From Parcubacteria group bacterium Gr01-1014_31 (GTDB lineage: Bacteria; Patescibacteriota; Patescibacteriia; Buchananbacterales; GWA2-38-13): DNA of 64,000 nt. The translations under genes and the position numbers were made by a program. The notes under the pieces were generated by a model. That model was not told the origin of the DNA, did no database searches, and saw only the letters and a list, made by a program, of their open reading frames with translations. Position 1 is the stretch's first letter, and every line of letters starts with the position of its first letter. Below, piece by piece: positions 26,370 through 45,308 of the stretch. Location of the stretch: positions 77,290 to 141,289 of the forward strand of contig VMFR01000001.1 in assembly GCA_007376135.1 (NCBI GenBank). The letters are read 5' to 3'.

Positions 26370-26392
26370 CTCAAGGCTTCTTCGCAACACCA

Positions 26393-26421
26393 CAGGCCGG
26401 TGCCATGCCGGCCTGTTTTTT
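26393..26421 (+). terminator. intrinsic terminator after lipoprotein gene
   Basis: aggccgg-tgccatg-ccggcct followed by gtttttt. Confidence 0.7.
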
Positions 26422-26444
26422 GTTCCCGCCGCATTTTTTTGACG

Positions 26445-26474
26445 TTGAGCCGCCGACGGCAGCTATGGTATACT
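26445..26474 (+). promoter_or_regulatory. gap promoter with extended -10
   Basis: TTGAGC (26445-26450), 18-nt spacer, TGgTATACT (26466-26474). Confidence 0.5.
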
Positions 26475-26500: not shown

Positions 26501-27514
26501 ATGAGCATTCGTGTCGCCATTAACGGTTTTGGGAGGGTTGGGCGCGCCGCGTTCCGGGTCGCGCTGGAGAAAAAAAACGTGCAGGTGGTCGGTATCAACG
26601 ATATTACCGAGCCCAAGGTGCTGGCGCACCTTTTGAAGTACGACACCGTCTACCGGACGTTCCCGGGCAAGGTGGAATTTTCGGCGGACGCGCTGGTCGT
26701 GGACGGCAAGCGCTATCCGGTCAGCGCTATCAAGGAGCCCGACCAGTTGCCGTGGAAAAAACTCCGGGTCGACGTCGTATTGGAATGCACGGGGCGTTTC
26801 ACCAGCGCAGCGGAGGCGGGACGTCACTTGCGCGCCGGTGCCAAACGCGTGGTCATATCGGCGCCGGCAAAGGACGATGCGACGCAAACCCTGGTTCTGG
26901 GGACCGTTGAAACTCGGAAGCGTATTCATGATAAGAAAGCGGCGGAGGTCGTATCGAACGCGTCGTGCACCACCAACTGCATCTCTCCGGTCATTCAAGT
27001 GTTGGAAAACGCTTTCGGCGTCCAGAAAGCGATGATGACTACCATCCATTCGTATACCGCCGATCAGAATCTGGTGGACGGACCCCACCGCGATCTGCGA
27101 CGGGCGCGCGCCGCGTCGCAAAGCATGATCCCGACGTCAACGGGCGCCGCGATCGCGACGACCAAGGTGATCTCCTCTTTGCGTTCGCGGTTCGACGGTA
27201 TTGCCATCCGGGTGCCGACCGTTTGCGTTTCGATCTCGGACGTCACCGCCCTGCTGAAAAAGAACACGACGGTGGATGAGGTGAACGCCGCGTTTACGGC
27301 TGCCGAAAAAGACCCGCTGTACGCCGGCGTTTTAGGGGTGAGCATCGCGCCGTTGGTCTCCAGTGATTATATCGGCGACCCGCGTTCCGCGATCGTTGAT
27401 CCGGAGTTCACGTGCGTCGTGGGTGGCAACCTGGTGAAGGTGCTCGCATGGTATGACAACGAGTGGGGCTATGCGCATCGTCTGGTGGAATTGGCAATGG
27501 CAGTGAGCAATTGA
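26501..27514 (+). CDS. gap: glyceraldehyde-3-phosphate dehydrogenase, type I
   Basis: 'IRVAINGFGRVGR' and 'SNASCTTNCISP' (catalytic Cys). ATG at 26501. Confidence 0.95.
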   Translation: MSIRVAINGFGRVGRAAFRVALEKKNVQVVGINDITEPKVLAHLLKYDTVYRTFPGKVEFSADALVVDGKRYPVSAIKEPDQLPWKKLRVDVVLECTGRFTSAAEAGRHLRAGAKRVVISAPAKDDATQTLVLGTVETRKRIHDKKAAEVVSNASCTTNCISPVIQVLENAFGVQKAMMTTIHSYTADQNLVDGPHRDLRRARAASQSMIPTSTGAAIATTKVISSLRSRFDGIAIRVPTVCVSISDVTALLKKNTTVDEVNAAFTAAEKDPLYAGVLGVSIAPLVSSDYIGDPRSAIVDPEFTCVVGGNLVKVLAWYDNEWGYAHRLVELAMAVSN

Positions 27515-27550
27515 TCACCCAGAGGAAATCATTTATTCAGTAACGAACTT

Positions 27551-27697
27551 ATGCCAAAGCAACCAACTCCGACGGAGAATTCCAAGAAACCCTCCACCGG
27601 TCATTGCGGTGACGGCGCTTGCAGCCACCAGGATGCGAACGGTGCGAAGGCGGGCGAGTGCTGCGGGGGCGGCGGTTCCTGTGATTGCTGCGATTAA
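27551..27697 (+). CDS. small Cys-rich peptide (48 aa), possible metallothionein-like protein
   Basis: ATG 27551 to TAA 27697 encodes 'MPKQPTPTENSKKPSTGHCGDGACSHQDANGAKAGECCGGGGSCDCCD' (9 Cys, 2 His). Not in the ORF track (<60 aa). Sits between gap and pgk. Confidence 0.4.
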   Translation: MPKQPTPTENSKKPSTGHCGDGACSHQDANGAKAGECCGGGGSCDCCD

Positions 27698-27721
27698 CGA
27701 TCGCGGCCGCGCAACGTTCCA

Positions 27722-28915
27722 ATGCGGCTGAAATCGGTACGGACAATCCGGGCGCTGAAGAATCGGCGGGTGCTGCTCCGCACGGATTTTAATGTTCCCT
27801 TGGAGAATGGGACCGTCGCTGCGGAAGGCGATGAACGCATCCTGCGTACCCTGCCCACGATCCGTTACCTTCTGCGCCGTGGCGCGTTAGTGATTATAGC
27901 AACGCACCTGGGCCGTCCGGACGGTCGGGTCGTCCCTCGTTACCGGCTCAAGCCGTTGGCGGCGTACCTTGGACGGAAGTTGAAGACCCCGGTCCGCGCG
28001 CTGCCGAAGGCGGTTGGTCCTCAGGTTGCCGCCGCAGTGGGGCGGGCTTCCGCCGGTACCGTCTTGATGCTTGAAAACCTCCGATTTGATCCGGGCGAGG
28101 AGGAAAATAGCGTTCCATTTGCCCGTGCCCTGGCCGAGTTGTGCGACTTGTACGTCAACGACGCGTTCGGCAACGCCCACCGTGAGCACGCCTCCATGGT
28201 TGGAGTGCCGCGCTACCGGAAAAGTTATGCCGGGTTGCTGTTGGCGGAAGAAGTACGGGTACTGTCCGGGCTGCTCGCGCGACCGCGCCGCCCGATGGCC
28301 GCGATCATCGGCGGGGTCAAACTTTCCACTAAACTTGCGGTCATCCAAACGTTCCTGAAACTCGCCGATGACCTGTTGCTGGGCGGCAATTTGGCCAACA
28401 CCGTGCTGAAAGCCCGCGGCGTGGCGGTCGGACGTTCGCCGGTCGAAGAAAAGCTGCTGCCCTCGCTGCAACGGCTGAAGTTGACGACTGCCAGACTCCA
28501 TCTTCCCGTCGATGTCATTACCGCGAGCGGTACGGCCTCCGGCCTGTCGACGCGCACCTTGGCGGTAGCGAACGTCCGGTCCGATGAGTACATCCTTGAT
28601 GTTGGGCCGGATACGGTGCGGCTGTTTGATGCAGTGCTGCGGGACGCGAGAACCATCGTTTGGAACGGCCCGATGGGGAAGTTTGAGCTTTCCGCCTTTG
28701 CGGCCGGTACCATCGGGTTGGTACACGCGATTGCCCATACGCGCGCGCGGGTGGTGATCGGCGGGGGAGAGACGGTTGCCGCAGTGCGGCGTTACCTGCC
28801 AAAGCCGGCCGCCGCATATCCCAACATCTACCTTTCCACCGGCGGCGGCGCGATGCTCGAATTTTTAGAGCGTGGCACTCTTCCGGCGTTGCGGCCGCTG
28901 ATCCTCGGTACATAA
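27722..28915 (+). CDS. pgk: phosphoglycerate kinase
   Basis: 'RVLLRTDFNVPL' and 'IIATHLGRPDG' are classic PGK N-domain motifs across 397 aa. Confidence 0.95.
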   Translation: MRLKSVRTIRALKNRRVLLRTDFNVPLENGTVAAEGDERILRTLPTIRYLLRRGALVIIATHLGRPDGRVVPRYRLKPLAAYLGRKLKTPVRALPKAVGPQVAAAVGRASAGTVLMLENLRFDPGEEENSVPFARALAELCDLYVNDAFGNAHREHASMVGVPRYRKSYAGLLLAEEVRVLSGLLARPRRPMAAIIGGVKLSTKLAVIQTFLKLADDLLLGGNLANTVLKARGVAVGRSPVEEKLLPSLQRLKLTTARLHLPVDVITASGTASGLSTRTLAVANVRSDEYILDVGPDTVRLFDAVLRDARTIVWNGPMGKFELSAFAAGTIGLVHAIAHTRARVVIGGGETVAAVRRYLPKPAAAYPNIYLSTGGGAMLEFLERGTLPALRPLILGT

Positions 28916-28943: not shown

Positions 28944-29726
28944 ATGCTTATGCCAAGCGAGCCATCTTCAAGCCCACGCGGGGCCTCATGGTCTGCGGCC
29001 GTCTGGCTCGTGGCCATCATCCTGGTCGTCTATCTGGGCGCGTTGACCCGCAATGCCTGGCGGCAGAACGCGTTCATCGGCCGGGCGAGCGTTGCGCCGT
29101 ACACCATCATGATTTCGGGGGAAGGCAAGGTTACCGCTTTGCCGGACGTGGCTGTCCTGACGCTGGGGACACAGACCGAGCGTCGAACGGTCGCCGATGC
29201 GCAGCGTGAGAATACCACGGCGATGAATCAGCTGCGCGAGCGTCTGAAAACCCTGCAAATTCCGGCGGCGGATATCACTACCAGCCAGTACAGCGTCTAC
29301 CCCCAGTACGACTGGAACGAGGGGCGCCAATCACTGCGCGGGTACCAGGTGACCCAGCAACTGACGGTCAAGATCCGCGATTTCGAAAAGATCTCGCCGG
29401 TCCTCGCGACGGTGGGCGAGCTGAGCCTCAACCAGGTCGGCGGTTTGAGCTTTGCCATCGATGACCCGGAGCAGTATCGCCAGGAGGCGCGGCTGAAAGC
29501 GCTGGAACAGGCCAAACAGAAAGCGGTGGCGCTGGCTGCAGCCGCCAAGGTTCGTTTAGGCAGGATCGTGTCATTCTCAGAAGGAGTGAGCGGCGGGTAT
29601 CCTCCTATCTACGCCAAGGAAGCCGCCTATGGAATGGGTGGCGGGGGCAGCGCACCGGCACCGATGGTGGAGCCTGGTAGTCAGGATATCGTGGTTTCCG
29701 TGACCGTCGGCTACGAACTTGAGTAA
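28944..29726 (+). CDS. SIMPL (DUF541) domain protein
   Basis: N-terminal TM, then 'ISGEGKVTALPDVAVLTLGTQTERRTVADAQRENTTAMNQL...YQVTQQLTVKIRDFEKIS', typical of the 26-kDa periplasmic antigen/SIMPL family. Confidence 0.65.
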   Translation: MLMPSEPSSSPRGASWSAAVWLVAIILVVYLGALTRNAWRQNAFIGRASVAPYTIMISGEGKVTALPDVAVLTLGTQTERRTVADAQRENTTAMNQLRERLKTLQIPAADITTSQYSVYPQYDWNEGRQSLRGYQVTQQLTVKIRDFEKISPVLATVGELSLNQVGGLSFAIDDPEQYRQEARLKALEQAKQKAVALAAAAKVRLGRIVSFSEGVSGGYPPIYAKEAAYGMGGGGSAPAPMVEPGSQDIVVSVTVGYELE

Positions 29727-29732
29727 TTCGCC

Positions 29733-30986
29733 ATGGCTGGACGCATTGCCGCGATCGCGGCTCGTGAAATTTTAGACTCCCGGGGCAACCCGACGGTCGC
29801 CGTGACCGTCGCGCTGGACACTGGCGCGAGTGGCTGTTCGGCGGTTCCTGCGGGCGCTTCCCGCGGCCAGCATGAAGCGCGCGAACGTCGCGACGGGGGA
29901 AAACGTTTCGGCGGCCTGGGGGTTCGCCGGGCGGTCGCGAACGTGACCGATGTGATTGCCCCCGCCTTGCGCGGGCTGCCGGCCGCCGATCAGGCGATGC
30001 TTGATTCGCGCATGCTTACTCTCGATACCAGTCCCGGCAAAGCGAAGCTTGGCGCCAATGCGATGCTCGGCGTCTCGTTGGCGGCGGCGCGTGCCGCCGC
30101 CAACGAGACCAAGCTCCCGCTGTACCGCTATCTGCGCCAGTCGTTATTTACGGACGTCACGGGCTGGTCGCTTCCGACGCCGATGGCAAACATCTTGAAT
30201 GGCGGCGCTCATGCCGGATGGTCGATCGATTTCCAGGAATTCATGGTATTGCCGCAGCAACGGTCAGCGGCGGAGCAAGTTCGTTGCGGCGCCGAGATCT
30301 TCCATGTGTTAGGGCGGTTGTTGGCGCGGCGCGAGCAGCCGGTAACGGTTGGGGATGAGGGCGGGTACGCACCGCGGCTTTCTGGCAATGAGGCGCCCTT
30401 GAAGCTTCTGGCGCTGGCCGTCCGCGCTTCCGGCTACCGGCTCGGGCGGGACGTGCGGTTCGGTTTGGACCCCGCGGCATCGGAATTCTACCGCGGGGGG
30501 GTATACCGATTGCGCAGCGAGCGGCGCAGTCTGCACACCGATGCGATGATCCTGCGGTATCGCGCGTGGGTCAAGAAATACCCCATTGCGACCATCGAGG
30601 ATGGGTTGAGCGAGGATGATTGGTCCGGCTGGCAGCGCCTGACTGCCGTGCTCGGCAAAACGGTAACGCTGGTCGGCGACGACTTGTTCGTGACGAATAC
30701 CACGCGGTTACAGCGCGGCATCGACCAGGGAGTCGCCAACGCCATCCTGGTCAAACCCAACCAGGTTGGCACGCTGACGGAAACCGTTGCCGCCATGCGG
30801 TTGGCTCGCTCCCATGGGTATCAGATCGCGGTTTCGCATCGTTCCGGTGAAACTACCGATACTTTTATCGTCGATCTGGCGGTGGCCGGGCAAGCCGAAT
30901 ATTTGAAGGCCGGTTCATTTTCTCGCGGCGAACGCGTCGCAAAATGGAATCGCCTGATGGCAATCGCTGAGCAGGTGGCAGATTGA
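29733..30986 (+). CDS. eno: enolase
   Basis: 'IAAREILDSRGNPTVAV' and 'VKPNQVGTLTET' are canonical enolase motifs across 417 aa. Confidence 0.95.
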   Translation: MAGRIAAIAAREILDSRGNPTVAVTVALDTGASGCSAVPAGASRGQHEARERRDGGKRFGGLGVRRAVANVTDVIAPALRGLPAADQAMLDSRMLTLDTSPGKAKLGANAMLGVSLAAARAAANETKLPLYRYLRQSLFTDVTGWSLPTPMANILNGGAHAGWSIDFQEFMVLPQQRSAAEQVRCGAEIFHVLGRLLARREQPVTVGDEGGYAPRLSGNEAPLKLLALAVRASGYRLGRDVRFGLDPAASEFYRGGVYRLRSERRSLHTDAMILRYRAWVKKYPIATIEDGLSEDDWSGWQRLTAVLGKTVTLVGDDLFVTNTTRLQRGIDQGVANAILVKPNQVGTLTETVAAMRLARSHGYQIAVSHRSGETTDTFIVDLAVAGQAEYLKAGSFSRGERVAKWNRLMAIAEQVAD

Positions 30987-30989
30987 GCT

Positions 30990-32585
30990 ATGTCTGACGA
31001 CCGTGTTGCTGGCGCGGAGAGAACCGGACCGGTCGTCCTGGCGGTTTTGGATGGCTGGGGTGTGAGCAATCAAACGCGCGGCAACGCCATCGCATTGGCG
31101 AAAACTCCGGTCATGGATGAGCTGTACCAGCATTTTCCTCATACCCAGCTGACCGCTTCCGGGCCGGCGGTCGGTCTTCCCGAAGGACAGCCGGGTAATT
31201 CCGAAGCGGGACATCTCAATATCGGTGCGGGCAGGATCGTCATCCAGGATGCGGTCAAGATCAGCCGCGAGATTAACACGGGCGCTTTTTTTAAAAATGC
31301 TGCGTTCACCAAAGCGATCGACCATGTGCGGCGACGCAGGTCCGCGCTGCACTTGATGGGCCTCTTGAGCAACGAGGCCAGCGCGCACGCGTGCCCGGAC
31401 CACCTCTTCGCGCTCCTGACGCTGGCTCGTCGCCACCACATCAAGCGGGTGTATTTACACCTGTTTACCGATGGCCGCGATTCGCCGCCCCACGCCGGGT
31501 TGAAATTGATGAACGCACTGATGCGGGCGTTGAAACACGAACTGATCGCCACGGTCATGGGGCGGTTCTACGCCATGGATCGCAAGAAAGATTGGACCCG
31601 GACGCTTTTGGCGTACGATGCGATGGTGACCGGGAGCGGTTTGAGCGCCACCAGTCCGCAGGCGGCCATCACCGAGTCGTACAATCGCAATGAATCGGAC
31701 GAGTTCATCCCGCCCTACGTCGTGCGCCGGCGCGGCAAGCCGGTGGCGACCATCAACGACGGGGACGGGGTCATTTTCTTTAATTTGCGGTCTGATCGAG
31801 CGCGGCAGATGTCCAAACCGTTCGTGCAGCACGAATTTGAAAAGATGAACCCCGGCGCCTTCCGCCGCCGCAAAGTGCTGCGCGACCTCAACTTTGTCGC
31901 CATGACCGACTTTGGACCGGATTTGGATCACGTTTCTACCGCCTATACCTCCGAAGACGTGTCCGACAGCCTGCCGCGGGTGTTGCGCGGGTGCAAGCAG
32001 CTCTACATCGCCGAAGCCGAGAAGTACGCGCATGTGACGTTCTTCATAAACGGTGGTTTTGCCGATCCGATCGGCGGAGAAGACCGGGTGCGCATTGACT
32101 CACTCGATGTGCCGTCGTATGCGACGGTGCCGGAGATGTCAGCGGGAGAAGTGACCGATCAGGTCGTCTGGGCGGTGCCTCGCTATGATTTTATTTGTGT
32201 GAATTATGGCAATGCGGACATGGTGGGCCATACGGGGAACCTGCCGGCGGCGCAGAAAGCGGTGGAATATATCGACCGTTGCCTGGGCCGGGTCTGGCGC
32301 GCCGTCAGCAAACGTAATGGTTGGCTGATCATCACGGCGGATCACGGCAACGCGGAAATGATGCAGAATCCAGCCACTGGCGAAGTGGATACTGAACACA
32401 ATCTCAGTCCGGTGCCGTTCATTCTCGCCGGGCCGCACCATTATCGGTTGCGGACGGGACGTCCGCCTTTAGCGTCGGTCGCCCCGACCATTTGCCAGCT
32501 TCTTGCGGTTGCGTCCCCGGCGGCAATGACGGGCCGCAGTTTGATCGTCGGCCGTGCATCATCGATGGATGCGCATCGGTCCTAA
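30990..32585 (+). CDS. gpmI: 2,3-bisphosphoglycerate-independent phosphoglycerate mutase, copy 1
   Basis: 'VLAVLDGWG', 'GNSEAGHLNIGAGRIV', 'LFTDGRD' and 'ADHGNAE' are iPGM/alkaline-phosphatase-fold motifs across 531 aa. Confidence 0.9.
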   Translation: MSDDRVAGAERTGPVVLAVLDGWGVSNQTRGNAIALAKTPVMDELYQHFPHTQLTASGPAVGLPEGQPGNSEAGHLNIGAGRIVIQDAVKISREINTGAFFKNAAFTKAIDHVRRRRSALHLMGLLSNEASAHACPDHLFALLTLARRHHIKRVYLHLFTDGRDSPPHAGLKLMNALMRALKHELIATVMGRFYAMDRKKDWTRTLLAYDAMVTGSGLSATSPQAAITESYNRNESDEFIPPYVVRRRGKPVATINDGDGVIFFNLRSDRARQMSKPFVQHEFEKMNPGAFRRRKVLRDLNFVAMTDFGPDLDHVSTAYTSEDVSDSLPRVLRGCKQLYIAEAEKYAHVTFFINGGFADPIGGEDRVRIDSLDVPSYATVPEMSAGEVTDQVVWAVPRYDFICVNYGNADMVGHTGNLPAAQKAVEYIDRCLGRVWRAVSKRNGWLIITADHGNAEMMQNPATGEVDTEHNLSPVPFILAGPHHYRLRTGRPPLASVAPTICQLLAVASPAAMTGRSLIVGRASSMDAHRS

Positions 32586-32593
32586 TCCTGTTT

Positions 32594-34168
32594 ATGGCTC
32601 GACCTAAACCCGTCGTGTTGGTGGTCCTGGACGGTTGGGGCGTCGCGCCGCCGTCGCCGACCAACGCGATCAGTCGAGCGAAAACCCCCGTCTTCGACCG
32701 TCTGGTGGCGGAATACCCGGTGCTCACGTTGCAGGCGTCCGGTGAGGCAGTCGGGCTGCTGTGGGGGGAAATGGGCAATTCCGAAGTTGGTCACTTGAGC
32801 ATGGGTTCGGGCAGGATCGTGTACCAGACGTTGCCCAAGATCAATAAGGCGATCAGCGACGGTACGTTCAGTGCGACGGCGGCCATTCAGCGCGCGTTTG
32901 CGCATCTCCGGGAAACCCCCGGAGCGCAGCTGCACCTGGTGGGTTTGGTCTCCAATGGCGGCGTGCACAGCCATCAGGAGCATCTCTTCGCGCTGCTGGA
33001 TTGCTGCCAAGCCAATAATGTGAAGCCGTTGGTACACGTAATTCTCGACGGCCGCGATACCGCCCGCGATGCCGGCGCGGATGCCGTGGCGCAGCTGGGG
33101 CAGAAATTAGCCGCCGTCGGCGGCCAGGTCAGCACGGTGGCGGGGCGTTTCTGGTCGATGGACCGGGACAGCCATTGGGAGCGCATCGAGCGTTCCTATC
33201 AGGCAATGACGAAGGGCGACGGGCAGACCGCGACCGATGCGGTTGCCGCCATCCGCCAGTCGTACGCGCAGGGAGTGTTCGACGAGGAGTTTGCTCCTTG
33301 CACGCTGGTACAGGGGGGTTTCCCCGTGGGTTTAGTGCGCGACCGCGATGCCGTCATTTTTTTTAACTTCCGCGCGGACCGGGCCAGACAACTGACCGCG
33401 AGTTTTGTGCTGCCCGGTTTTGCGAAATTCGAACGTCCCTACCTGCGCGACCTGTATTTTGTGACCATGACCGAGTATGATAAGGATCTTCCGGTCGAGA
33501 TCGCGTTCCCTCCCGACTACGTGCGCGAGCCAGTCGCGAAGGTCATGGCGGAGGCCGGGTTGCGGCAGCTGCATATTGCGGAGACCGAGAAGTACGCGCA
33601 TGTCACCTTCTTTTTCAACGGCGGACGGGAGGAGCCTTTTCCCGGCGAGGATCGGGCGCTGATCCCGTCACCGCGGGTGTCCAGCTACGCCCTGCAGCCG
33701 CAGATGAGCGCGTATGAGCTGACCACGCGATTGCTCGATGACCTGCGGCGCGGCGTGTACGATTTCGTTGTGGCCAACTATGCCAACGTGGATATGGTCG
33801 GCCATACGGGCAATTTGCAGGCAACGGTGCGCGCCGTCGAGGTGATCGACGAATGCTTGGGCAAGGTGGTCGCTGCAGTGCTCGAGGCGGGCGGAGTGTT
33901 ACTGATAACCGCCGACCATGGTAACGCCGAGGAGCTGGTATCCTTGCAATCCGGCGAGATCAATAAAGAGCACAGCACGAGCCCGGTGCCGCTCCTGATC
34001 GTGGGCGCGTCCTACGCCGGTAGGGCGGCGCGGAGGGGTCCGGACATCGTCGGGAGCGATCTGTCCATCATTATGCCCTCGGGGGTGTTGGCCGACCTTG
34101 GTCCGACCGTGTTGCAGCTTTTGGAGCTATCCGTCCCGGCGGAAATGAGTGGCCATTCGTTGCTGTAG
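32594..34168 (+). CDS. gpmI: 2,3-bisphosphoglycerate-independent phosphoglycerate mutase, copy 2 (divergent paralog)
   Basis: 'VLVVLDGWG', 'GNSEVGHLSMGSGRIV', 'ILDGRD' and 'ADHGNAE'. About 40% identical to copy 1 by eye. Confidence 0.9.
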   Translation: MARPKPVVLVVLDGWGVAPPSPTNAISRAKTPVFDRLVAEYPVLTLQASGEAVGLLWGEMGNSEVGHLSMGSGRIVYQTLPKINKAISDGTFSATAAIQRAFAHLRETPGAQLHLVGLVSNGGVHSHQEHLFALLDCCQANNVKPLVHVILDGRDTARDAGADAVAQLGQKLAAVGGQVSTVAGRFWSMDRDSHWERIERSYQAMTKGDGQTATDAVAAIRQSYAQGVFDEEFAPCTLVQGGFPVGLVRDRDAVIFFNFRADRARQLTASFVLPGFAKFERPYLRDLYFVTMTEYDKDLPVEIAFPPDYVREPVAKVMAEAGLRQLHIAETEKYAHVTFFFNGGREEPFPGEDRALIPSPRVSSYALQPQMSAYELTTRLLDDLRRGVYDFVVANYANVDMVGHTGNLQATVRAVEVIDECLGKVVAAVLEAGGVLLITADHGNAEELVSLQSGEINKEHSTSPVPLLIVGASYAGRAARRGPDIVGSDLSIIMPSGVLADLGPTVLQLLELSVPAEMSGHSLL

Positions 34169-37547: not shown

Positions 37548-37577
37548 GGTGATGGGGCGTTGGAGGCAATTTCCGGT

Positions 37578-38585
37578 ATGTTGATCAAGAAAATCGGCAT
37601 CGATCTTGGAACCACGAACACGCTCGTCTACGTCCCGCGGCGGGGTATTGTTATCAATGAACCCTCAGTGGTCGCGCTTTCGATTGCCGATAAAAAGATC
37701 CTGACGGTAGGGCAGGAGGCGAAGGAAATGCTGGGTCGTACGCCCGACACCATCGTCGCGGTGCGTCCGCTCAAGGACGGCGTGATTGCGGACTATAAAA
37801 TGACCGCGGCCATGATCCGTTACTTCGTGAACAAGGCCCTCGGCGGCGTTCACCTCTTCCGACCCGAGGTCATGGTTGCCGTCCCCGCCGGTATCACCTC
37901 GACGGAACGGCGCGCCGTCATCGATGCGACGCTGGCCGCCGGCGCCAAGGCGGCCTACATCATTAAGGAACCGATCGTCGCGGCCATCGGCGCCGATGTT
38001 CCCATCGGCAGCGCGTCCGGGCACATGATCATCGATATCGGCGGCGGTACCGCCGAGATGGCGATCCTGTCATTAGGCGGTATGGTCGCGAGCGCTTCGG
38101 TACGGATCGGCGGTAACAAATTCGACGCGGCCATCGTGGAATACATTCGCCGCAAGTACGGGCTGGCCATCGGTGAACGGACGGCGGAGCGCATCAAGAT
38201 CGATATCGGGTCGGCGATGTACCTGGAGGAACGGTTGAGCAAGGAGATCCGCGGCCGGGACATCATCACCGGATTACCGCGTTCCATCACGGTCACTTCC
38301 GATGACGTGACCGATGCCATTCAGGAAGAGTTGGAGGGCATCATCGCGTCGGCCAAAGAGGTGCTGCATCGTACTCCCCCGGAGTTGGCGGCCGATATCA
38401 TTGATAAGGGGATGATTCTGTCGGGCGGGTCATCGCAGTTGAGGAATCTTGATCAGCTGTTGTCTCGGGCGACCGGGGTTTCTGCCTATGTGGCGGATGA
38501 GCCGATGCTCTGCGTCGCAAAAGGGACCGGCATCGCGCTGGAAAATCTTGAGAGCTACAAGCGCAGCATTCTGGCCATGCGCTAA
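37578..38585 (+). CDS. mreB: rod shape-determining protein MreB, paralog 1
   Basis: 'IGIDLGTTNTLVYVPRRGIVINEPSVVA' and 'DIGGGTAEMAILSLGG' are actin-fold MreB motifs. Confidence 0.9.
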   Translation: MLIKKIGIDLGTTNTLVYVPRRGIVINEPSVVALSIADKKILTVGQEAKEMLGRTPDTIVAVRPLKDGVIADYKMTAAMIRYFVNKALGGVHLFRPEVMVAVPAGITSTERRAVIDATLAAGAKAAYIIKEPIVAAIGADVPIGSASGHMIIDIGGGTAEMAILSLGGMVASASVRIGGNKFDAAIVEYIRRKYGLAIGERTAERIKIDIGSAMYLEERLSKEIRGRDIITGLPRSITVTSDDVTDAIQEELEGIIASAKEVLHRTPPELAADIIDKGMILSGGSSQLRNLDQLLSRATGVSAYVADEPMLCVAKGTGIALENLESYKRSILAMR

Positions 38586-44252: not shown

Positions 44253-45308
44253 ATGTTCGATCGCTGGTTTAAAAAGACTTCCCACGACATTGGGATTGAT
44301 CTGGGTACGAGCAACACCCTCGTGTTCATTCAGGATCGCGGCGTGGTCATCAACGAAGCGTCGGTCGTGGCCGTGAACACGCGTGCGGGGCAGATCCTGG
44401 CCGTGGGTCGCGAGGCGCTCAAGATGCAGGGGAAGACCCCCGCTCATTTACAGGTGATACAGCCGCTGGTGGACGGGGTCATCTCCGATTTCGAGGTGGC
44501 GGAAAAGATGTTGAAATATTTTTTTGACCGGGTCCACCGCGAACACCGGATGCTGACCCCGCGGCCGCGGGTGGTCATTGGGATCCCGCTGGATGTCACC
44601 GAGGTGGAGAAGAAGGCGGTTGAGGACGCCGTGATGTCGGCTGGCGCCCGCGAGGTGCATTTGGTGCAAACGATCGTCGCGGCTGCGGTCGGCGCGCGCC
44701 TTCCTATCCAGGATGCCTCGGGCAATATGCTGGTCGATTGCGGCGGCGGGGTCACCCAGGTGGCGGTGATCTCGCTCTCGGGCGTGGTGGCGTCCAAATC
44801 ATTGCGGGTTGCCGGCAGCGAAGTGGACGTCGACATCATGAATTATGCCCGCCACGAATTCAACCTTTTGGTCGGGGAACGGGTCGCCGAAGAAGCGAAG
44901 TTGTATATCAGTCGGAGCAAGGAGGGCGCGCCGTTGCCGACGGTAAAGCTGCGCGGACGCGATTTGTTGACCGGGTTGCCGCGTGAGATCGGCCTGAGCG
45001 GCGAGCAGATGGTCAGCGCGTTGCGCCGGTCGCTCAAGAGCATCGTCGACGGCATCAAGTCGACGTTGGAGGTCACGCCGCCGGAACTCGTGGCTGATAT
45101 TTACCAACGCGGCATTACGTTAGTGGGCGGCGGCGCGAGCCTACTGGGATTGCGCGAGGCGATCGTCGAGGCGACCAAAATGAAGGTCATTGTGGTCGAT
45201 GATCCAATGACGTGCGCGGTACGGGGTATGGGATTATTACTCGAAGATGCCGCGCTCTTACGGGAGATCTCCATTCCATCGTCGCAGAACGACGACATCG
45301 TGCGCTAG
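44253..45308 (+). CDS. mreB: rod shape-determining protein MreB, paralog 2
   Basis: 'IGIDLGTSNTLVFIQDRGVVINEASVVAV' and 'DCGGGVTQVAVISLSG'. Followed by mreC and mreD. Confidence 0.9.
   Translation: MFDRWFKKTSHDIGIDLGTSNTLVFIQDRGVVINEASVVAVNTRAGQILAVGREALKMQGKTPAHLQVIQPLVDGVISDFEVAEKMLKYFFDRVHREHRMLTPRPRVVIGIPLDVTEVEKKAVEDAVMSAGAREVHLVQTIVAAAVGARLPIQDASGNMLVDCGGGVTQVAVISLSGVVASKSLRVAGSEVDVDIMNYARHEFNLLVGERVAEEAKLYISRSKEGAPLPTVKLRGRDLLTGLPREIGLSGEQMVSALRRSLKSIVDGIKSTLEVTPPELVADIYQRGITLVGGGASLLGLREAIVEATKMKVIVVDDPMTCAVRGMGLLLEDAALLREISIPSSQNDDIVR

What the first reader, a model, noticed from the sequence alone, without database searches (positions are those of the whole stretch)
27551..27697. 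Unannotated 48-codon Cys-rich ORF between gap and pgk
The sequence ATG...TAA encodes 'MPKQPTPTENSKKPSTGHCGDGACSHQDANGAKAGECCGGGGSCDCCD', with 9 Cys and 2 His concentrated in the C-terminal 30 residues (GHCG, CC, SCDCCD). Composition and length resemble bacterial metallothionein-like metal-binding peptides or a Cys-rich RiPP precursor. Its position inside the otherwise contiguous gap-pgk-eno glycolytic operon is unusual, and the GC and codon usage match the host genome. It is missing from the ORF track because it is shorter than 60 aa.
Basis: seen in the sequence. Interest (0 to 1): 0.55.

Follow-up and report, generated by a model that had tools for sequence, protein, structure and literature searches.

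The report
Conserved cysteine-rich microprotein between gap and pgk
A 48-codon gene that annotation pipelines mostly miss sits between two glycolysis genes of an uncultured Patescibacteria-like bacterium; it is kept by selection in related genomes and most likely encodes a small metallothionein-like peptide of a family not described before.

Summary
The ORF is real at 27551..27697 (+) and reads as quoted, but it has 7 Cys, not 9. One open 48-codon frame means little here (chance about 0.21). The case rests on comparison.

I fetched 13 orthologous gap-pgk spacers through Pgk relatives (97-61% identity).
- Eleven carry a Cys/Gly/Asp-rich ORF in the same place and strand, ending 13-69 nt before pgk.
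- Eight (seven distinct sequences) are long forms of 46-62 aa with 6-9 Cys. Three are short forms of 17-23 aa ending in DCGCG.
- Two spacers are only 15-22 bp and have no ORF.
- None of 79 more distant pgk loci has anything like it.

dN/dS is 0.24-0.33 in three independent pairs, and about 1 in four of the other five frames (0.51 in the fifth). Motifs persist through synonymous change, so the peptide is translated and under selection.

It matches no Pfam, NCBIfam or PDB entry. No radical-SAM, YcaO or lanthipeptide-enzyme domain was found among about 45 window proteins scanned. No supported RNA structure was found.

Composition is metallothionein-like: CxC/CC arrays, His next to Cys, no aromatic residues, predicted disordered. 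Best reading: a new metallothionein-like thiol or metal buffer co-expressed with GAPDH. Main rival: a Cys-rich regulatory upstream ORF for pgk. Function is inferred, not shown.

The parts
27551..27697 (+). Cys-rich microprotein gene: 48 codons plus TAA, with 7 Cys and 2 His
   Evidence: Sequence and ORF list. The same ORF is found in L081 (identical peptide, one synonymous change) and L001 (75% identical, same length). dN/dS is 0.30 in this frame against 0.51-1.16 in the other five.
27551..27601 (+). Pro/Lys/Thr-rich N-terminal tail (codons 1-17, MPKQPTPTENSKKPSTG). The first 7 codons are nucleotide-identical in L001.
   Evidence: An MPxK(x)P start recurs in L082, L085 and L086.
27602..27694 (+). 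Cys/His core (codons 18-48): HCx4CxH ... CCGGGGSCDCCD
   Evidence: All 7 Cys and both His are conserved in L001. CCGGxGxCxC aligns with CCGGNGEC(A/V)C of L085/L086. AlphaFold2 gives pLDDT 50 and essentially no secondary structure (one 4-residue helix).
27515..27550 (+). AT-rich 36-nt spacer after the gap stop codon; likely translation-initiation region of the small ORF
   Evidence: This genome hardly uses Shine-Dalgarno motifs, and many genes have AT-rich leaders of this kind. 27531-27575 is 93-95% identical to L001, against 83% overall.
27687..27707 (+). 9-bp hairpin GCUGCGAUU-AAC-GAUCGCGGC that puts the ORF stop codon in or next to its loop. Present in L001 too, but not significant against shuffles.
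   Evidence: Folds (z = -0.4 and -1.3). The post-stop 15 nt are identical in L001.
27698..27721 (+). GC-rich 24-nt spacer between the ORF stop and the pgk ATG. No Shine-Dalgarno motif and no AT-rich leader, so pgk translation is probably coupled to the ORF.
   Evidence: The ORF-stop to pgk-start distance is 13-69 nt in all 11 ORF-bearing loci (L084, read, duplicates L083).
26501..27514 (+). gap (glyceraldehyde-3-phosphate dehydrogenase), upstream neighbour
   Evidence: Pfam Gp_dh_N and Gp_dh_C
27722..28915 (+). pgk (phosphoglycerate kinase), downstream neighbour
   Evidence: Pfam PGK, E = 1e-117
26392..26474 (+). Terminator-like hairpin (26392-26416) followed by a promoter-like site (26445-26474) upstream of gap. 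This is the likely start of the gap-ORF-pgk-SIMPL-eno-gpmI transcription unit.
   Evidence: Consensus scan. No promoter-like or terminator-like site on the + strand between gap and pgk.
28944..32585 (+). Rest of the cluster: SIMPL/DUF541 (28944-29726), eno (29733-30986), iPGM (30990-32585)
   Evidence: Pfam. The order gap, pgk, SIMPL, eno is the same in every related locus that extends that far.

Best explanation
The ORF is a real, translated gene for a 48-residue cysteine/histidine/acidic microprotein. It founds a family (17-62 aa) restricted to one uncultured Patescibacteria-like clade, and it is always encoded between gap and pgk.

Shown:
- The position and reading frame are conserved.
- Selection acts at the amino-acid level.
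- The composition is metallothionein-like.
- There is no detectable homology to any described family.

Inferred:
- The apo-peptide is disordered. Its CxC, CC and HxC arrays (7 Cys plus 2 His) bind thiophilic metal ions (Cu(I), Zn(II), Cd(II)) in thiolate clusters, or otherwise act as a sacrificial thiol buffer.
- It is transcribed on the glycolytic operon mRNA, so it is made together with GAPDH. GAPDH's catalytic Cys is a known prime target of Cu/Ag poisoning in fermentative bacteria.
- The peptide would therefore protect the ATP-yielding lower glycolysis of an organism that depends on it.
- Its stop codon lies 24 nt before a pgk start that lacks an AT-rich leader of its own. Translation of pgk is therefore probably coupled to translation of the microprotein.
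For: 1. Conservation.
- 11 of 13 orthologous gap-pgk spacers (Pgk 97-63% identical) carry a Cys-rich ORF on the same strand just upstream of pgk.
- None of 79 more distant pgk loci does.

2. Protein-level selection.
- dN/dS is 0.30, 0.24 and 0.33 in three independent pairs, with pS 0.36-0.68 and third-position changes dominating.
- In window vs L001, the ORF frame has 0.30; four of the other five frames have 0.96-1.16 and the fifth, which carries a stop, 0.51.
- DCGCG and CCGGNGEC persist with different synonymous codons.

3. Selection is not only on Cys. The Gly, Asp, Asn, Glu, Ser and His residues between the Cys are also kept (L085 vs L086 core).

4. Composition. Cys is 12-29%. All long forms have zero aromatic residues. 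The window peptide has zero aliphatic residues. His lies next to Cys. Motifs are CxC/CC.

5. Cys enrichment against the window proteome gives P = 2.7e-7.

6. AlphaFold2 gives pLDDT 50 with essentially no secondary structure (one 4-residue helix), as expected for an apo-metallothionein.

7. Operon context. A promoter-like site lies upstream of gap and none lies between gap and pgk. The small ORF has an AT-rich leader typical of this genome's genes, while pgk has a GC-rich one.

8. Rationale from the literature. GapA is a main target of Cu intoxication, and thiol buffers or metallothioneins protect it (PMC6350627; PMC7733945).
Against: - No metal binding, expression or phenotype data exist. Function rests on composition alone.
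- There is no homology to any metallothionein family.
- Three lineages keep only 17-23 aa with 3-5 Cys. That is few for a metal cluster, yet those forms are still under selection and still sit 18-21 nt from pgk. This points to a role tied to pgk expression.
- Two lineages have lost the ORF altogether (L088, L092).
- A metallothionein inside a glycolytic operon has no precedent that I know of.
- No metal-responsive regulator or transporter is nearby.
Confidence: 0.5

Rival explanations
1. Regulatory upstream ORF (leader peptide). The Cys-rich ORF is translated mainly to control the genes behind it (pgk, SIMPL, eno, gpmI). It could do so by simple termination-reinitiation coupling. Or it could act as a sensor: ribosomes slow at the Cys codons when Cys-tRNA is scarce, which changes how many ribosomes or how much mRNA reach pgk. 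This would resemble the mycobacterial poly-Cys attenuators.
For: - The ORF always ends 13-69 nt before pgk.
- In the short-form clade only the 17-23 codons next to pgk survive, 18-21 nt from the pgk ATG.
- pgk has no AT-rich leader of its own.
- The ORF 3' end, the post-stop spacer and the pgk start are 93-95% identical between window and L001, against 83% overall. This suggests extra nucleotide-level constraint.
- Local hairpins place the stop codon in or next to a loop. L085 has a strong one (z = -4.2).
- Precedent: poly-Cys sORF attenuators (bioRxiv 10.1101/834739).
Against: - Consecutive Cys codons are not conserved: L082, L089 and L090 have only CxC.
- Residues between the Cys are also conserved.
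- Pairing between the Cys tract and the pgk initiation region is no better than in shuffles (z from -1.7 to +1.0).
- Folds are not significant in 9 of 10 loci.
- The ORF is operon-internal, not at a 5' end.
- The downstream genes are not cysteine-metabolism genes.
- No second Cys-rich sORF exists in the 64-kb window.
- 46-62 codons is long for a leader peptide.
Confidence: 0.25
2. CP12-like conditionally disordered redox switch. The oxidised (disulfide) or metal-bound form of the peptide binds GAPDH and/or PGK and modulates their activity.
For: - The peptide is small, disordered, acidic and Cys-containing.
- It is encoded directly next to gap in every locus.
- CP12 sets a precedent for such regulation of GAPDH, and it also binds copper (PMC9406205).
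Against: - There is no Pfam hit to any family, CP12 included.
- I see no CP12 core motif and no conserved C-terminal Cys pair (CP12 features recalled from memory).
- The C-termini differ completely between subclades.
- The organism is not photosynthetic.
- No interaction data exist.
Confidence: 0.1
3. RiPP precursor (SCIFF/ranthipeptide-like or other Cys-modified peptide). The Pro/Lys-rich N-terminus would be the leader and the Cys-rich part the core.
For: The peptide has an N-terminal tail plus a Cys-rich C-terminus and is about 48 aa long.
Against: - There is no relevant hit to any NCBIfam or Pfam model.
- No radical-SAM, YcaO or lanthipeptide-enzyme domain was found in about 45 proteins of the 64-kb window.
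- The conserved neighbours are glycolysis genes in all 13 loci.
Confidence: 0.05
4. Not a gene. The open frame is a by-product of a GC-rich untranslated spacer or of an RNA element.
For: - A 48-codon open frame has P about 0.21 by chance.
- Most gene callers skipped it.
- Antisense frames are also open.
Against: - dN/dS is 0.24-0.33 in the ORF frame, about 1 in four of the other five frames and 0.51 in the fifth.
- Motifs are conserved through synonymous changes at near-saturated pS.
- Rfam finds nothing.
- Folds are not significant.
Confidence: 0.03

Closest known systems
Bacterial metallothioneins (SmtA/BmtA, Pfam PF02069; MymT of Mycobacterium; Pseudomonas metallothioneins)
   Same: - Size is similar (46-62 aa, against about 48-56 aa).
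- Cys is 12-17%, with 1-4 His.
- Motifs are CxC/CC.
- Aromatic residues are few or absent.
- The apo-form is disordered.
- The presumed role is buffering thiophilic metals.
   Different: - No sequence or HMM similarity was found.
- No zinc-finger-like fold is predicted.
- The gene sits inside a glycolytic operon, not under a metal sensor.
- Family members shrink to 17 aa in one subclade.
Fungal copper metallothioneins (Neurospora crassa type, about 26 aa, GDCGCSG...)
   Same: The very short Gly/Cys-rich peptides share a DCGC motif (L091 shares GDCGC).
   Different: This is a eukaryotic family, and the resemblance is low-complexity only. It is a lead, not evidence of homology.
Poly-cysteine leaderless sORF attenuators of mycobacteria (Canestrari et al., bioRxiv 10.1101/834739)
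   Same: It is an unannotated Cys-rich short ORF immediately upstream of operon genes. The downstream gene lacks an obvious initiation signal of its own.
   Different: - It is not at the 5' end of the transcript.
- Cys codons are mostly non-consecutive.
- The downstream genes are glycolytic, not cysteine-related.
- No supported sequestering RNA duplex was found.
- Long forms are 46-62 codons.
Cys/Gly-rich C-terminal tails of FmdB-family zinc-ribbon small proteins (Pfam PF09723 Zn_ribbon_8)
   Same: Metagenomic Zn_ribbon_8 proteins end in ...GGGCCGGGGSC(G/A)C..., and one ends in ...SCGCGH. This is the same motif, at the same extreme C-terminal position, as CCGGGGSCDCCD (window) and DCGCGH (L089).
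   Different: - The window family has no CxxC...CxxC zinc ribbon and no Pfam hit.
- The search pattern itself required CCGGxGxCxC.
- The function of these tails is unknown.
CP12 (conditionally disordered GAPDH/PRK regulator of photosynthetic organisms)
   Same: It is a small, disordered, Cys-bearing protein functionally tied to GAPDH, and it binds copper (PMC9406205).
   Different: There is no homology, no CP12 motifs, and the host is not photosynthetic.

Membership tests
Metallothionein (operational class) | Low molecular mass | tested here: met
   17-62 residues
Metallothionein (operational class) | High Cys content arranged as CxC, CC or CxxC | tested here: met
   12-29% Cys; CxC and CC in every member
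Metallothionein (operational class) | Few or no aromatic residues | tested here: met
   0 Phe/Trp/Tyr in all seven distinct long forms; one Tyr in two of the short forms
Metallothionein (operational class) | Binds metal ions in metal-thiolate clusters | not testable with these tools
   Needs metal titration and ESI-MS of the peptide
SmtA/BmtA bacterial metallothionein (Pfam PF02069) and the other Pfam metallothionein families | Match to the family HMM | tested here: not met
   No Pfam hit at E <= 10 for any of the 8 members of 20 residues or more that were scanned; no PDB hit
MymT | Sequence similarity to MymT | tested here: not met
   No relevant NCBIfam hit: two chance matches at E = 1.8 and 5.5 to unrelated models. 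Exhaustive phmmer against 1.84e9 proteins found only the L001 orthologue.
SCIFF / ranthipeptide precursors | Match to the precursor HMM | tested here: not met
   No NCBIfam model of this kind was hit at E <= 10
SCIFF / ranthipeptide precursors | Adjacent radical-SAM maturase | tested here: not met
   No radical-SAM domain in about 45 window proteins. The neighbours are gap and pgk in all loci. A few window ORFs were not scanned.
Poly-Cys sORF attenuators (mycobacterial type) | At least two consecutive Cys codons | tested here: inconclusive
   Present in the window, L001, L083, L085-L087 and L091; absent in L082, L089 and L090
Poly-Cys sORF attenuators (mycobacterial type) | Leaderless first ORF of the transcript | tested here: not met
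   The ORF starts 36 nt after the gap stop codon. The promoter-like site is upstream of gap and none lies in the spacer. The true transcription start site is not testable here.
Poly-Cys sORF attenuators (mycobacterial type) | RNA duplex that sequesters the downstream initiation region and involves the Cys tract | tested here: not met
   Duplex energies equal those of shuffles (z from -1.7 to +1.0). Accessibility of the pgk initiation region changed in only 2 of 10 loci when the tract was masked.
Poly-Cys sORF attenuators (mycobacterial type) | Controls cysteine-related genes | tested here: not met
   The downstream genes are pgk, SIMPL, eno and gpmI
FmdB family (Pfam PF09723 Zn_ribbon_8) | N-terminal CxxC-x17-CxxC zinc ribbon | tested here: not met
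   No Pfam hit. Only the C-terminal tail motif is shared.
CP12 | Match to a CP12 family HMM | tested here: not met
   No Pfam hit to any family. CP12 core motifs, recalled from memory, are not seen in the sequences.

The most novel reading that the evidence does not exclude
The Cys-rich ORF is a translational sensor built into the glycolytic operon of a reduced-genome (CPR-like) bacterium. Ribosome progress through its Cys/Gly codons, or metal binding by the nascent Cys-rich chain, sets how much pgk-eno-gpmI is made relative to gap. That would be a ribosome-based 'ribulon'-type control of central energy metabolism. It would lie outside Actinobacteria and outside cysteine metabolism, and the long forms would double as a metal-binding peptide.
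Probability: 0.2. Interest if true: 0.75.

Novelty: new variant of a known kind. Interest (0 to 1): 0.55.

Why it matters
If the peptide is a metal or thiol buffer, it is a previously unrecognised metallothionein-like family in candidate-phylum bacteria, which have few known stress defences. It would also be hard-wired to the enzymes that make their ATP. That would be a genetic link between metal or redox protection and glycolysis, and GAPDH is a known Achilles heel under copper stress.

If instead it is a regulatory upstream ORF, it would extend cysteine-codon-based translational control to central metabolism in a distant lineage.

Either way, the case shows that conserved microproteins are missed by annotation:
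- Only 2 of the 11 orthologous ORFs had been called as genes.
- The window peptide itself is absent from a 15-billion-protein collection.

Tried and rejected
- **Homology searches on the peptide.**
  - Pfam and NCBIfam gave nothing relevant; a PDB profile search gave nothing.
  - The word-indexed search of 5.8e9 proteins gave nothing for the window peptide. With the family profile it found only the called L086 gene.
  - Exhaustive phmmer against 1.84e9 representatives found only the L001 orthologue.
- **Metagenome scans.** The peptide alignment found no confirmed relative. It found no new family member, only chance hits and FmdB tails.
- **RNA explanations, all negative.**
  - Rfam at gathering and E-value thresholds.
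  - Folds of 10 loci.
  - Duplex of the Cys tract with the pgk initiation region, against shuffles.
  - The only exception is one clade-specific hairpin in L085.
- **Promoter/terminator scans of the spacers.** Nothing was found in the window spacer, L089 or L090.
- **Antisense 65-aa ORF (27549..27746, -).** Rejected: dN/dS is 0.96.
- **Second copies or other Cys-rich sORFs.** None in the 64-kb window or in any held locus.
- **Structure prediction.** It gave a low-confidence disordered model, so no fold search was run.
The E-values refer to a five-sequence database with composition correction off. They show composition-level resemblance only.
Full report
**1. The observation**

The window has an ATG...TAA ORF at 27551..27697 on the + strand. 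It encodes MPKQPTPTENSKKPSTGHCGDGACSHQDANGAKAGECCGGGGSCDCCD, exactly as quoted.

It lies 36 nt after the stop of gap (26501..27514; Gp_dh_N/Gp_dh_C). It ends 24 nt before the ATG of pgk (27722..28915; PGK, E = 1e-117).

Two details in the finding are off:
- The peptide has 7 cysteines, not 9.
- The cluster reads gap, ORF, pgk, SIMPL/DUF541, eno, iPGM, rather than gap-pgk-eno.

On its own an open 48-codon frame is unremarkable at this base composition (P about 0.21). The Cys content is remarkable: 7 of 48 residues, against 0.91% Cys in 32 window proteins, gives P = 2.7e-7.

**2. Related loci**

The peptide has no detectable relatives by direct search:
- The word-indexed search of 5.8e9 proteins found none.
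- Exhaustive phmmer against 1.84e9 representatives found a single hit, P0001, 48 aa and 75% identical.
- P0001 is NCBI MDO8559920.1, 'hypothetical protein', from a MAG labelled only 'bacterium'. The window peptide itself is not in the 15-billion-protein collection.

I therefore reached orthologous spacers through Pgk. A scan of GTDB species genomes gave one close relative, L001 (Pgk 89%). After that come Patescibacteria and others at 48% or less. The large protein collection gave a graded series of Pgk relatives at 97, 89, 73, 70, 69, 68, 65, 63 and 61% identity. Their contigs were fetched. One of them is named 'Patescibacteria group bacterium' by NCBI.

| Locus | Pgk identity | ORF in the gap-pgk spacer |
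|---|---|---|
| L081 | 97% | identical 48-aa peptide, one synonymous change |
| L001 | 89% | MPKQPTPADKTKQPSTCHCGDGACDHQGKGGPKAGECCGGDGSCDCCD |
| L082 | 73% | MPDKIAQPDQREQSCACQCGHADGRHPGCDPQGDEGCGCGDGTCACRQ |
| L085 | 70% | MPSKPADEPVSKSSVAAAPHECCGGNGECACSAGCQCAGDDCGCGDPRTTIASKVNADKKSC |
| L086 | 70% | MPSKHPQPTVPKSETEAHACCGGNGECVCSDGCACSGEDCGCGEPHAVEHLGPAIGKK |
| L083 (and L084, same sequence) | 69% | MGMTKKSPLPKDAVEHCECHPDAARGCVDEVAACDCCKPMPGGRGKGK |
| L087 | 68% | MEKKKKVSIPQDSAGGCECTDEVCGCAAEAAACDCCKPLHDDQGKG |
| L089 | 65% | MYTRTSGGGCADCGCGH |
| L090 | 65% | M..MSIGGGCGPDCGCGQ |
| L091 | 63% | MEILCDGGCCGDCGCGR |
| L088 | 68% | none; 15-bp spacer |
| L092 | 61% | none; 22-bp spacer |

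All these ORFs are on the coding strand and end 13-69 nt before pgk. Gene callers had called only two of them, in L001 and L086.

On a rough neighbour-joining Pgk tree, the ORF-bearing loci fall in four subclades. The short forms are monophyletic. L088 is sister to L083/L087, which implies a loss.

As a control, I scanned the 300 nt upstream of pgk in 79 more distant loci (L002-L080). None has a comparable ORF. There were only a few 3-4-Cys junk frames rich in Arg, Leu and aromatic residues.

**3. It is coding and under selection**

Nei-Gojobori estimates in three independent pairs:

| Pair | dN/dS | pS |
|---|---|---|
| window / L001 | 0.30 | 0.36 |
| L085 / L086 | 0.24 | 0.68 |
| L083 / L087 | 0.33 | 0.52 |

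- Differences concentrate at third codon positions.
- For window vs L001, four of the other five frames give 0.96-1.16 and the fifth, which carries a stop, 0.51. The open antisense frame gives 0.96. gap and pgk give 0.045 and 0.094.
- The peptide is therefore constrained, but it evolves much faster than its housekeeping neighbours.
- Motifs survive with different codons. DCGCG is GAT TGC GGT TGT GGA in L085, GAC TGT GGT TGC GGC in L086, GAC TGC GGG TGC GGT in L089 and GAT TGC GGG TGC GGA in L091.
- This rejects a purely RNA-level or chance explanation.
- The window C-terminus CCGGGGSCDC aligns with CCGGNGEC(A/V)C of L085/L086. The MPxK(x)P start is shared by the window type, L082 and L085/L086. 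The types are therefore homologous, with gain and loss of Cys modules.

**4. What kind of peptide**

- Composition is extreme. Cys is 12-29%, with 1-4 His in the long forms, often next to Cys (HC, HCECH, H(E/A)CC).
- Gly, Asp and Glu are abundant. No long form has an aromatic residue. The window peptide has no aliphatic residue.
- Cysteines occur as CxC, CC and Cx4C, not as the CxxC pairs of zinc ribbons or ferredoxins.
- AlphaFold2 gives pLDDT 50, pTM 0.16 and only one 4-residue helix.
- These are the operational hallmarks of metallothioneins: small, Cys-rich, metal-sequestering proteins (definition as in PMC12301328).
- There is no homology to any described family. Pfam found nothing for any member. 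NCBIfam gave only two chance matches, at E = 1.8 and 5.5. The PDB profile search found nothing.
The strongest was to a fungal copper metallothionein, with a shared GDCGC. That is a lead, not a test.

**5. Context**

- The 64-kb window is housekeeping: hrcA, dnaK, dnaJ, ftsW/rodA, L25, a release factor, rpsB, tsf, the glycolytic cluster, two iPGM genes, glycosyltransferases, two mreB, mreC, PBP2, an M50 protease and several aminoacyl-tRNA synthetases.
- It has no radical-SAM, YcaO or lanthipeptide enzyme, and no metal sensor or exporter, among about 45 proteins scanned.
- A terminator-like hairpin and a promoter-like site precede gap. Nothing of either kind lies between gap and pgk.
- The genome hardly uses Shine-Dalgarno motifs, and many genes have AT-rich leaders. 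The small ORF has such a leader (27515..27550). pgk has a GC-rich 24-nt spacer instead. This suggests pgk translation is coupled to the ORF.
- No second Cys-rich small ORF exists in the window or elsewhere in the related loci.

**6. RNA-level tests**

- Rfam finds nothing.
- Folds of the segment from the ORF 3' end to the pgk start are no more stable than dinucleotide shuffles in 9 of 10 loci. L085 is the exception: a 15-bp stem encloses the ORF tail and stop codon (z = -4.2).
- In the window and L001, a 9-bp hairpin (27687..27707) places the stop codon in or next to its loop. It is not significant.
- Pairing between the Cys-codon tract and the pgk initiation region equals that of shuffles (z from -1.7 to +1.0). 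Masking the tract changes predicted accessibility in only 2 of 10 loci.
- Between window and L001, the ORF start (27531-27575) and the stretch from the ORF 3' end through the spacer (27641-27715) are 93-95% identical. The overall figure is 83%, and the ORF middle is 70-75%.
- That is a modest hint of extra nucleotide-level constraint, resting on a single pair of sequences.

**7. Interpretation**

*Shown:*
- The gene is real, translated and lineage-restricted.
- It has metallothionein-like composition.
- It is fixed between gap and pgk.

*Inferred (about 0.5):*
- The product buffers thiophilic metals or oxidants.
- Because it is co-transcribed with GAPDH, it protects lower glycolysis. In fermentative bacteria GapA is a principal target of Cu (and Ag) poisoning, and thiol buffers such as glutathione, or metallothioneins, protect it (PMC6350627; PMC7733945).

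*Main rival (about 0.25):* the ORF acts in cis on pgk, as a coupling device or a Cys-sensing leader like the mycobacterial poly-Cys sORFs (bioRxiv 10.1101/834739).
- For it: the short-form clade keeps only the 17-23 codons next to pgk, at a fixed 18-21 nt distance, and pgk lacks its own leader.
- Against it:
  - Consecutive Cys codons are not conserved.
  - Non-Cys residues are conserved.
  - The ORF is operon-internal.
  - The downstream genes are not cysteine-related.
  - No supported sequestering structure exists.
- The two readings are not exclusive.

*Less likely:* a CP12-like redox regulator (about 0.1), a RiPP precursor (about 0.05) and a non-gene (about 0.03).

**8. A by-catch**

A DNA-pattern scan of metagenomes for CCGGxGxCxC found no further family member.

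It did turn up FmdB-family zinc-ribbon small proteins (Pfam Zn_ribbon_8 over residues 1-40). Their extreme C-termini read ...GGGCCGGGGSC(G/A)C.., and one ends in ...SCGCGH (L096, L107, L143, L178, L199). This is the same motif, in the same terminal position, as in the window peptide and in L089.

The pattern enforced part of this match. Even so, it suggests that the Cys/Gly tail is a recurrent module of unknown function.

**9. Limits**

- Only 13 loci were examined, and they are phylogenetically clustered.
- The alignments of the peptides are short and gapped.
- Synonymous sites are near saturation for the deeper pairs.
- The Pgk tree is neighbour-joining only.
- Three in-group loci could not be read (P0004 and P0014 were not looked up; P0010 had no DNA available).
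- There are no expression or biochemical data.

**Verdict**

- The metallothionein-like reading is the best supported, but it is unproven.
- The RiPP reading is unsupported.
- The family is new and almost unannotated.

Noticed in passing
window 30990-32585 and 32492-34168 (+): Two tandem genes both match the cofactor-independent phosphoglycerate mutase domains (iPGM_N plus Metalloenzyme). This looks like a tandem duplication at the end of the glycolytic cluster. L088 and L091 also show an iPGM gene after eno.
   Followed up: no
window 28944-29726 (+); also L082, L083, L085, L088-L091: A SIMPL/DUF541 gene with an N-terminal hydrophobic segment is conserved between pgk and eno across the clade. 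That is an odd passenger in a glycolytic operon.
   Followed up: partly
window, upstream regions of 34 genes: The genome almost lacks Shine-Dalgarno motifs. Many start codons are preceded by AT-rich stretches instead.
   Followed up: partly
L096 10185-10217, L107, L143, L178, L199 (metagenome contigs): FmdB-family zinc-ribbon small proteins (Pfam PF09723) carry extreme C-terminal tails ...GGGCCGGGGSC(G/A)C... This is the same motif as the C-terminus of the window peptide. The function of these tails is unknown.
   Followed up: partly
L085 1313-1376: A 15-bp stem encloses the last 15 codons and the stop of the Cys-rich ORF (MFE -31.2 kcal/mol, against -18.2 +/- 3.1 for shuffles; z = -4.2). The sister locus L086 has a weaker 8-bp stem in the analogous position, followed by a U-run.
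   Followed up: partly
L089 557-871 and L090 2765-2907: In the short-form clade the gap-to-ORF spacer is long (315 and 143 nt). It has no recognisable gene, promoter, terminator or Rfam match. It may be the decayed 5' part of a formerly longer ORF.
   Followed up: partly
window 37560-38585 and 44253-45308 (+): Two MreB paralogues lie in one window, together with mreC, PBP2 and an FtsW/RodA-family gene. That is a full rod-shape set for a Patescibacteria-like genome of about 60% GC.
   Followed up: no
window 27703-27710: A GCGGCCGC palindrome lies immediately after the ORF stop and is conserved in L081 and L001. The first 8 nt after the A of the pgk start (TGCGGCTG) equal the TGCGGCTG string inside the DCGCG codons of L090.
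   Followed up: no
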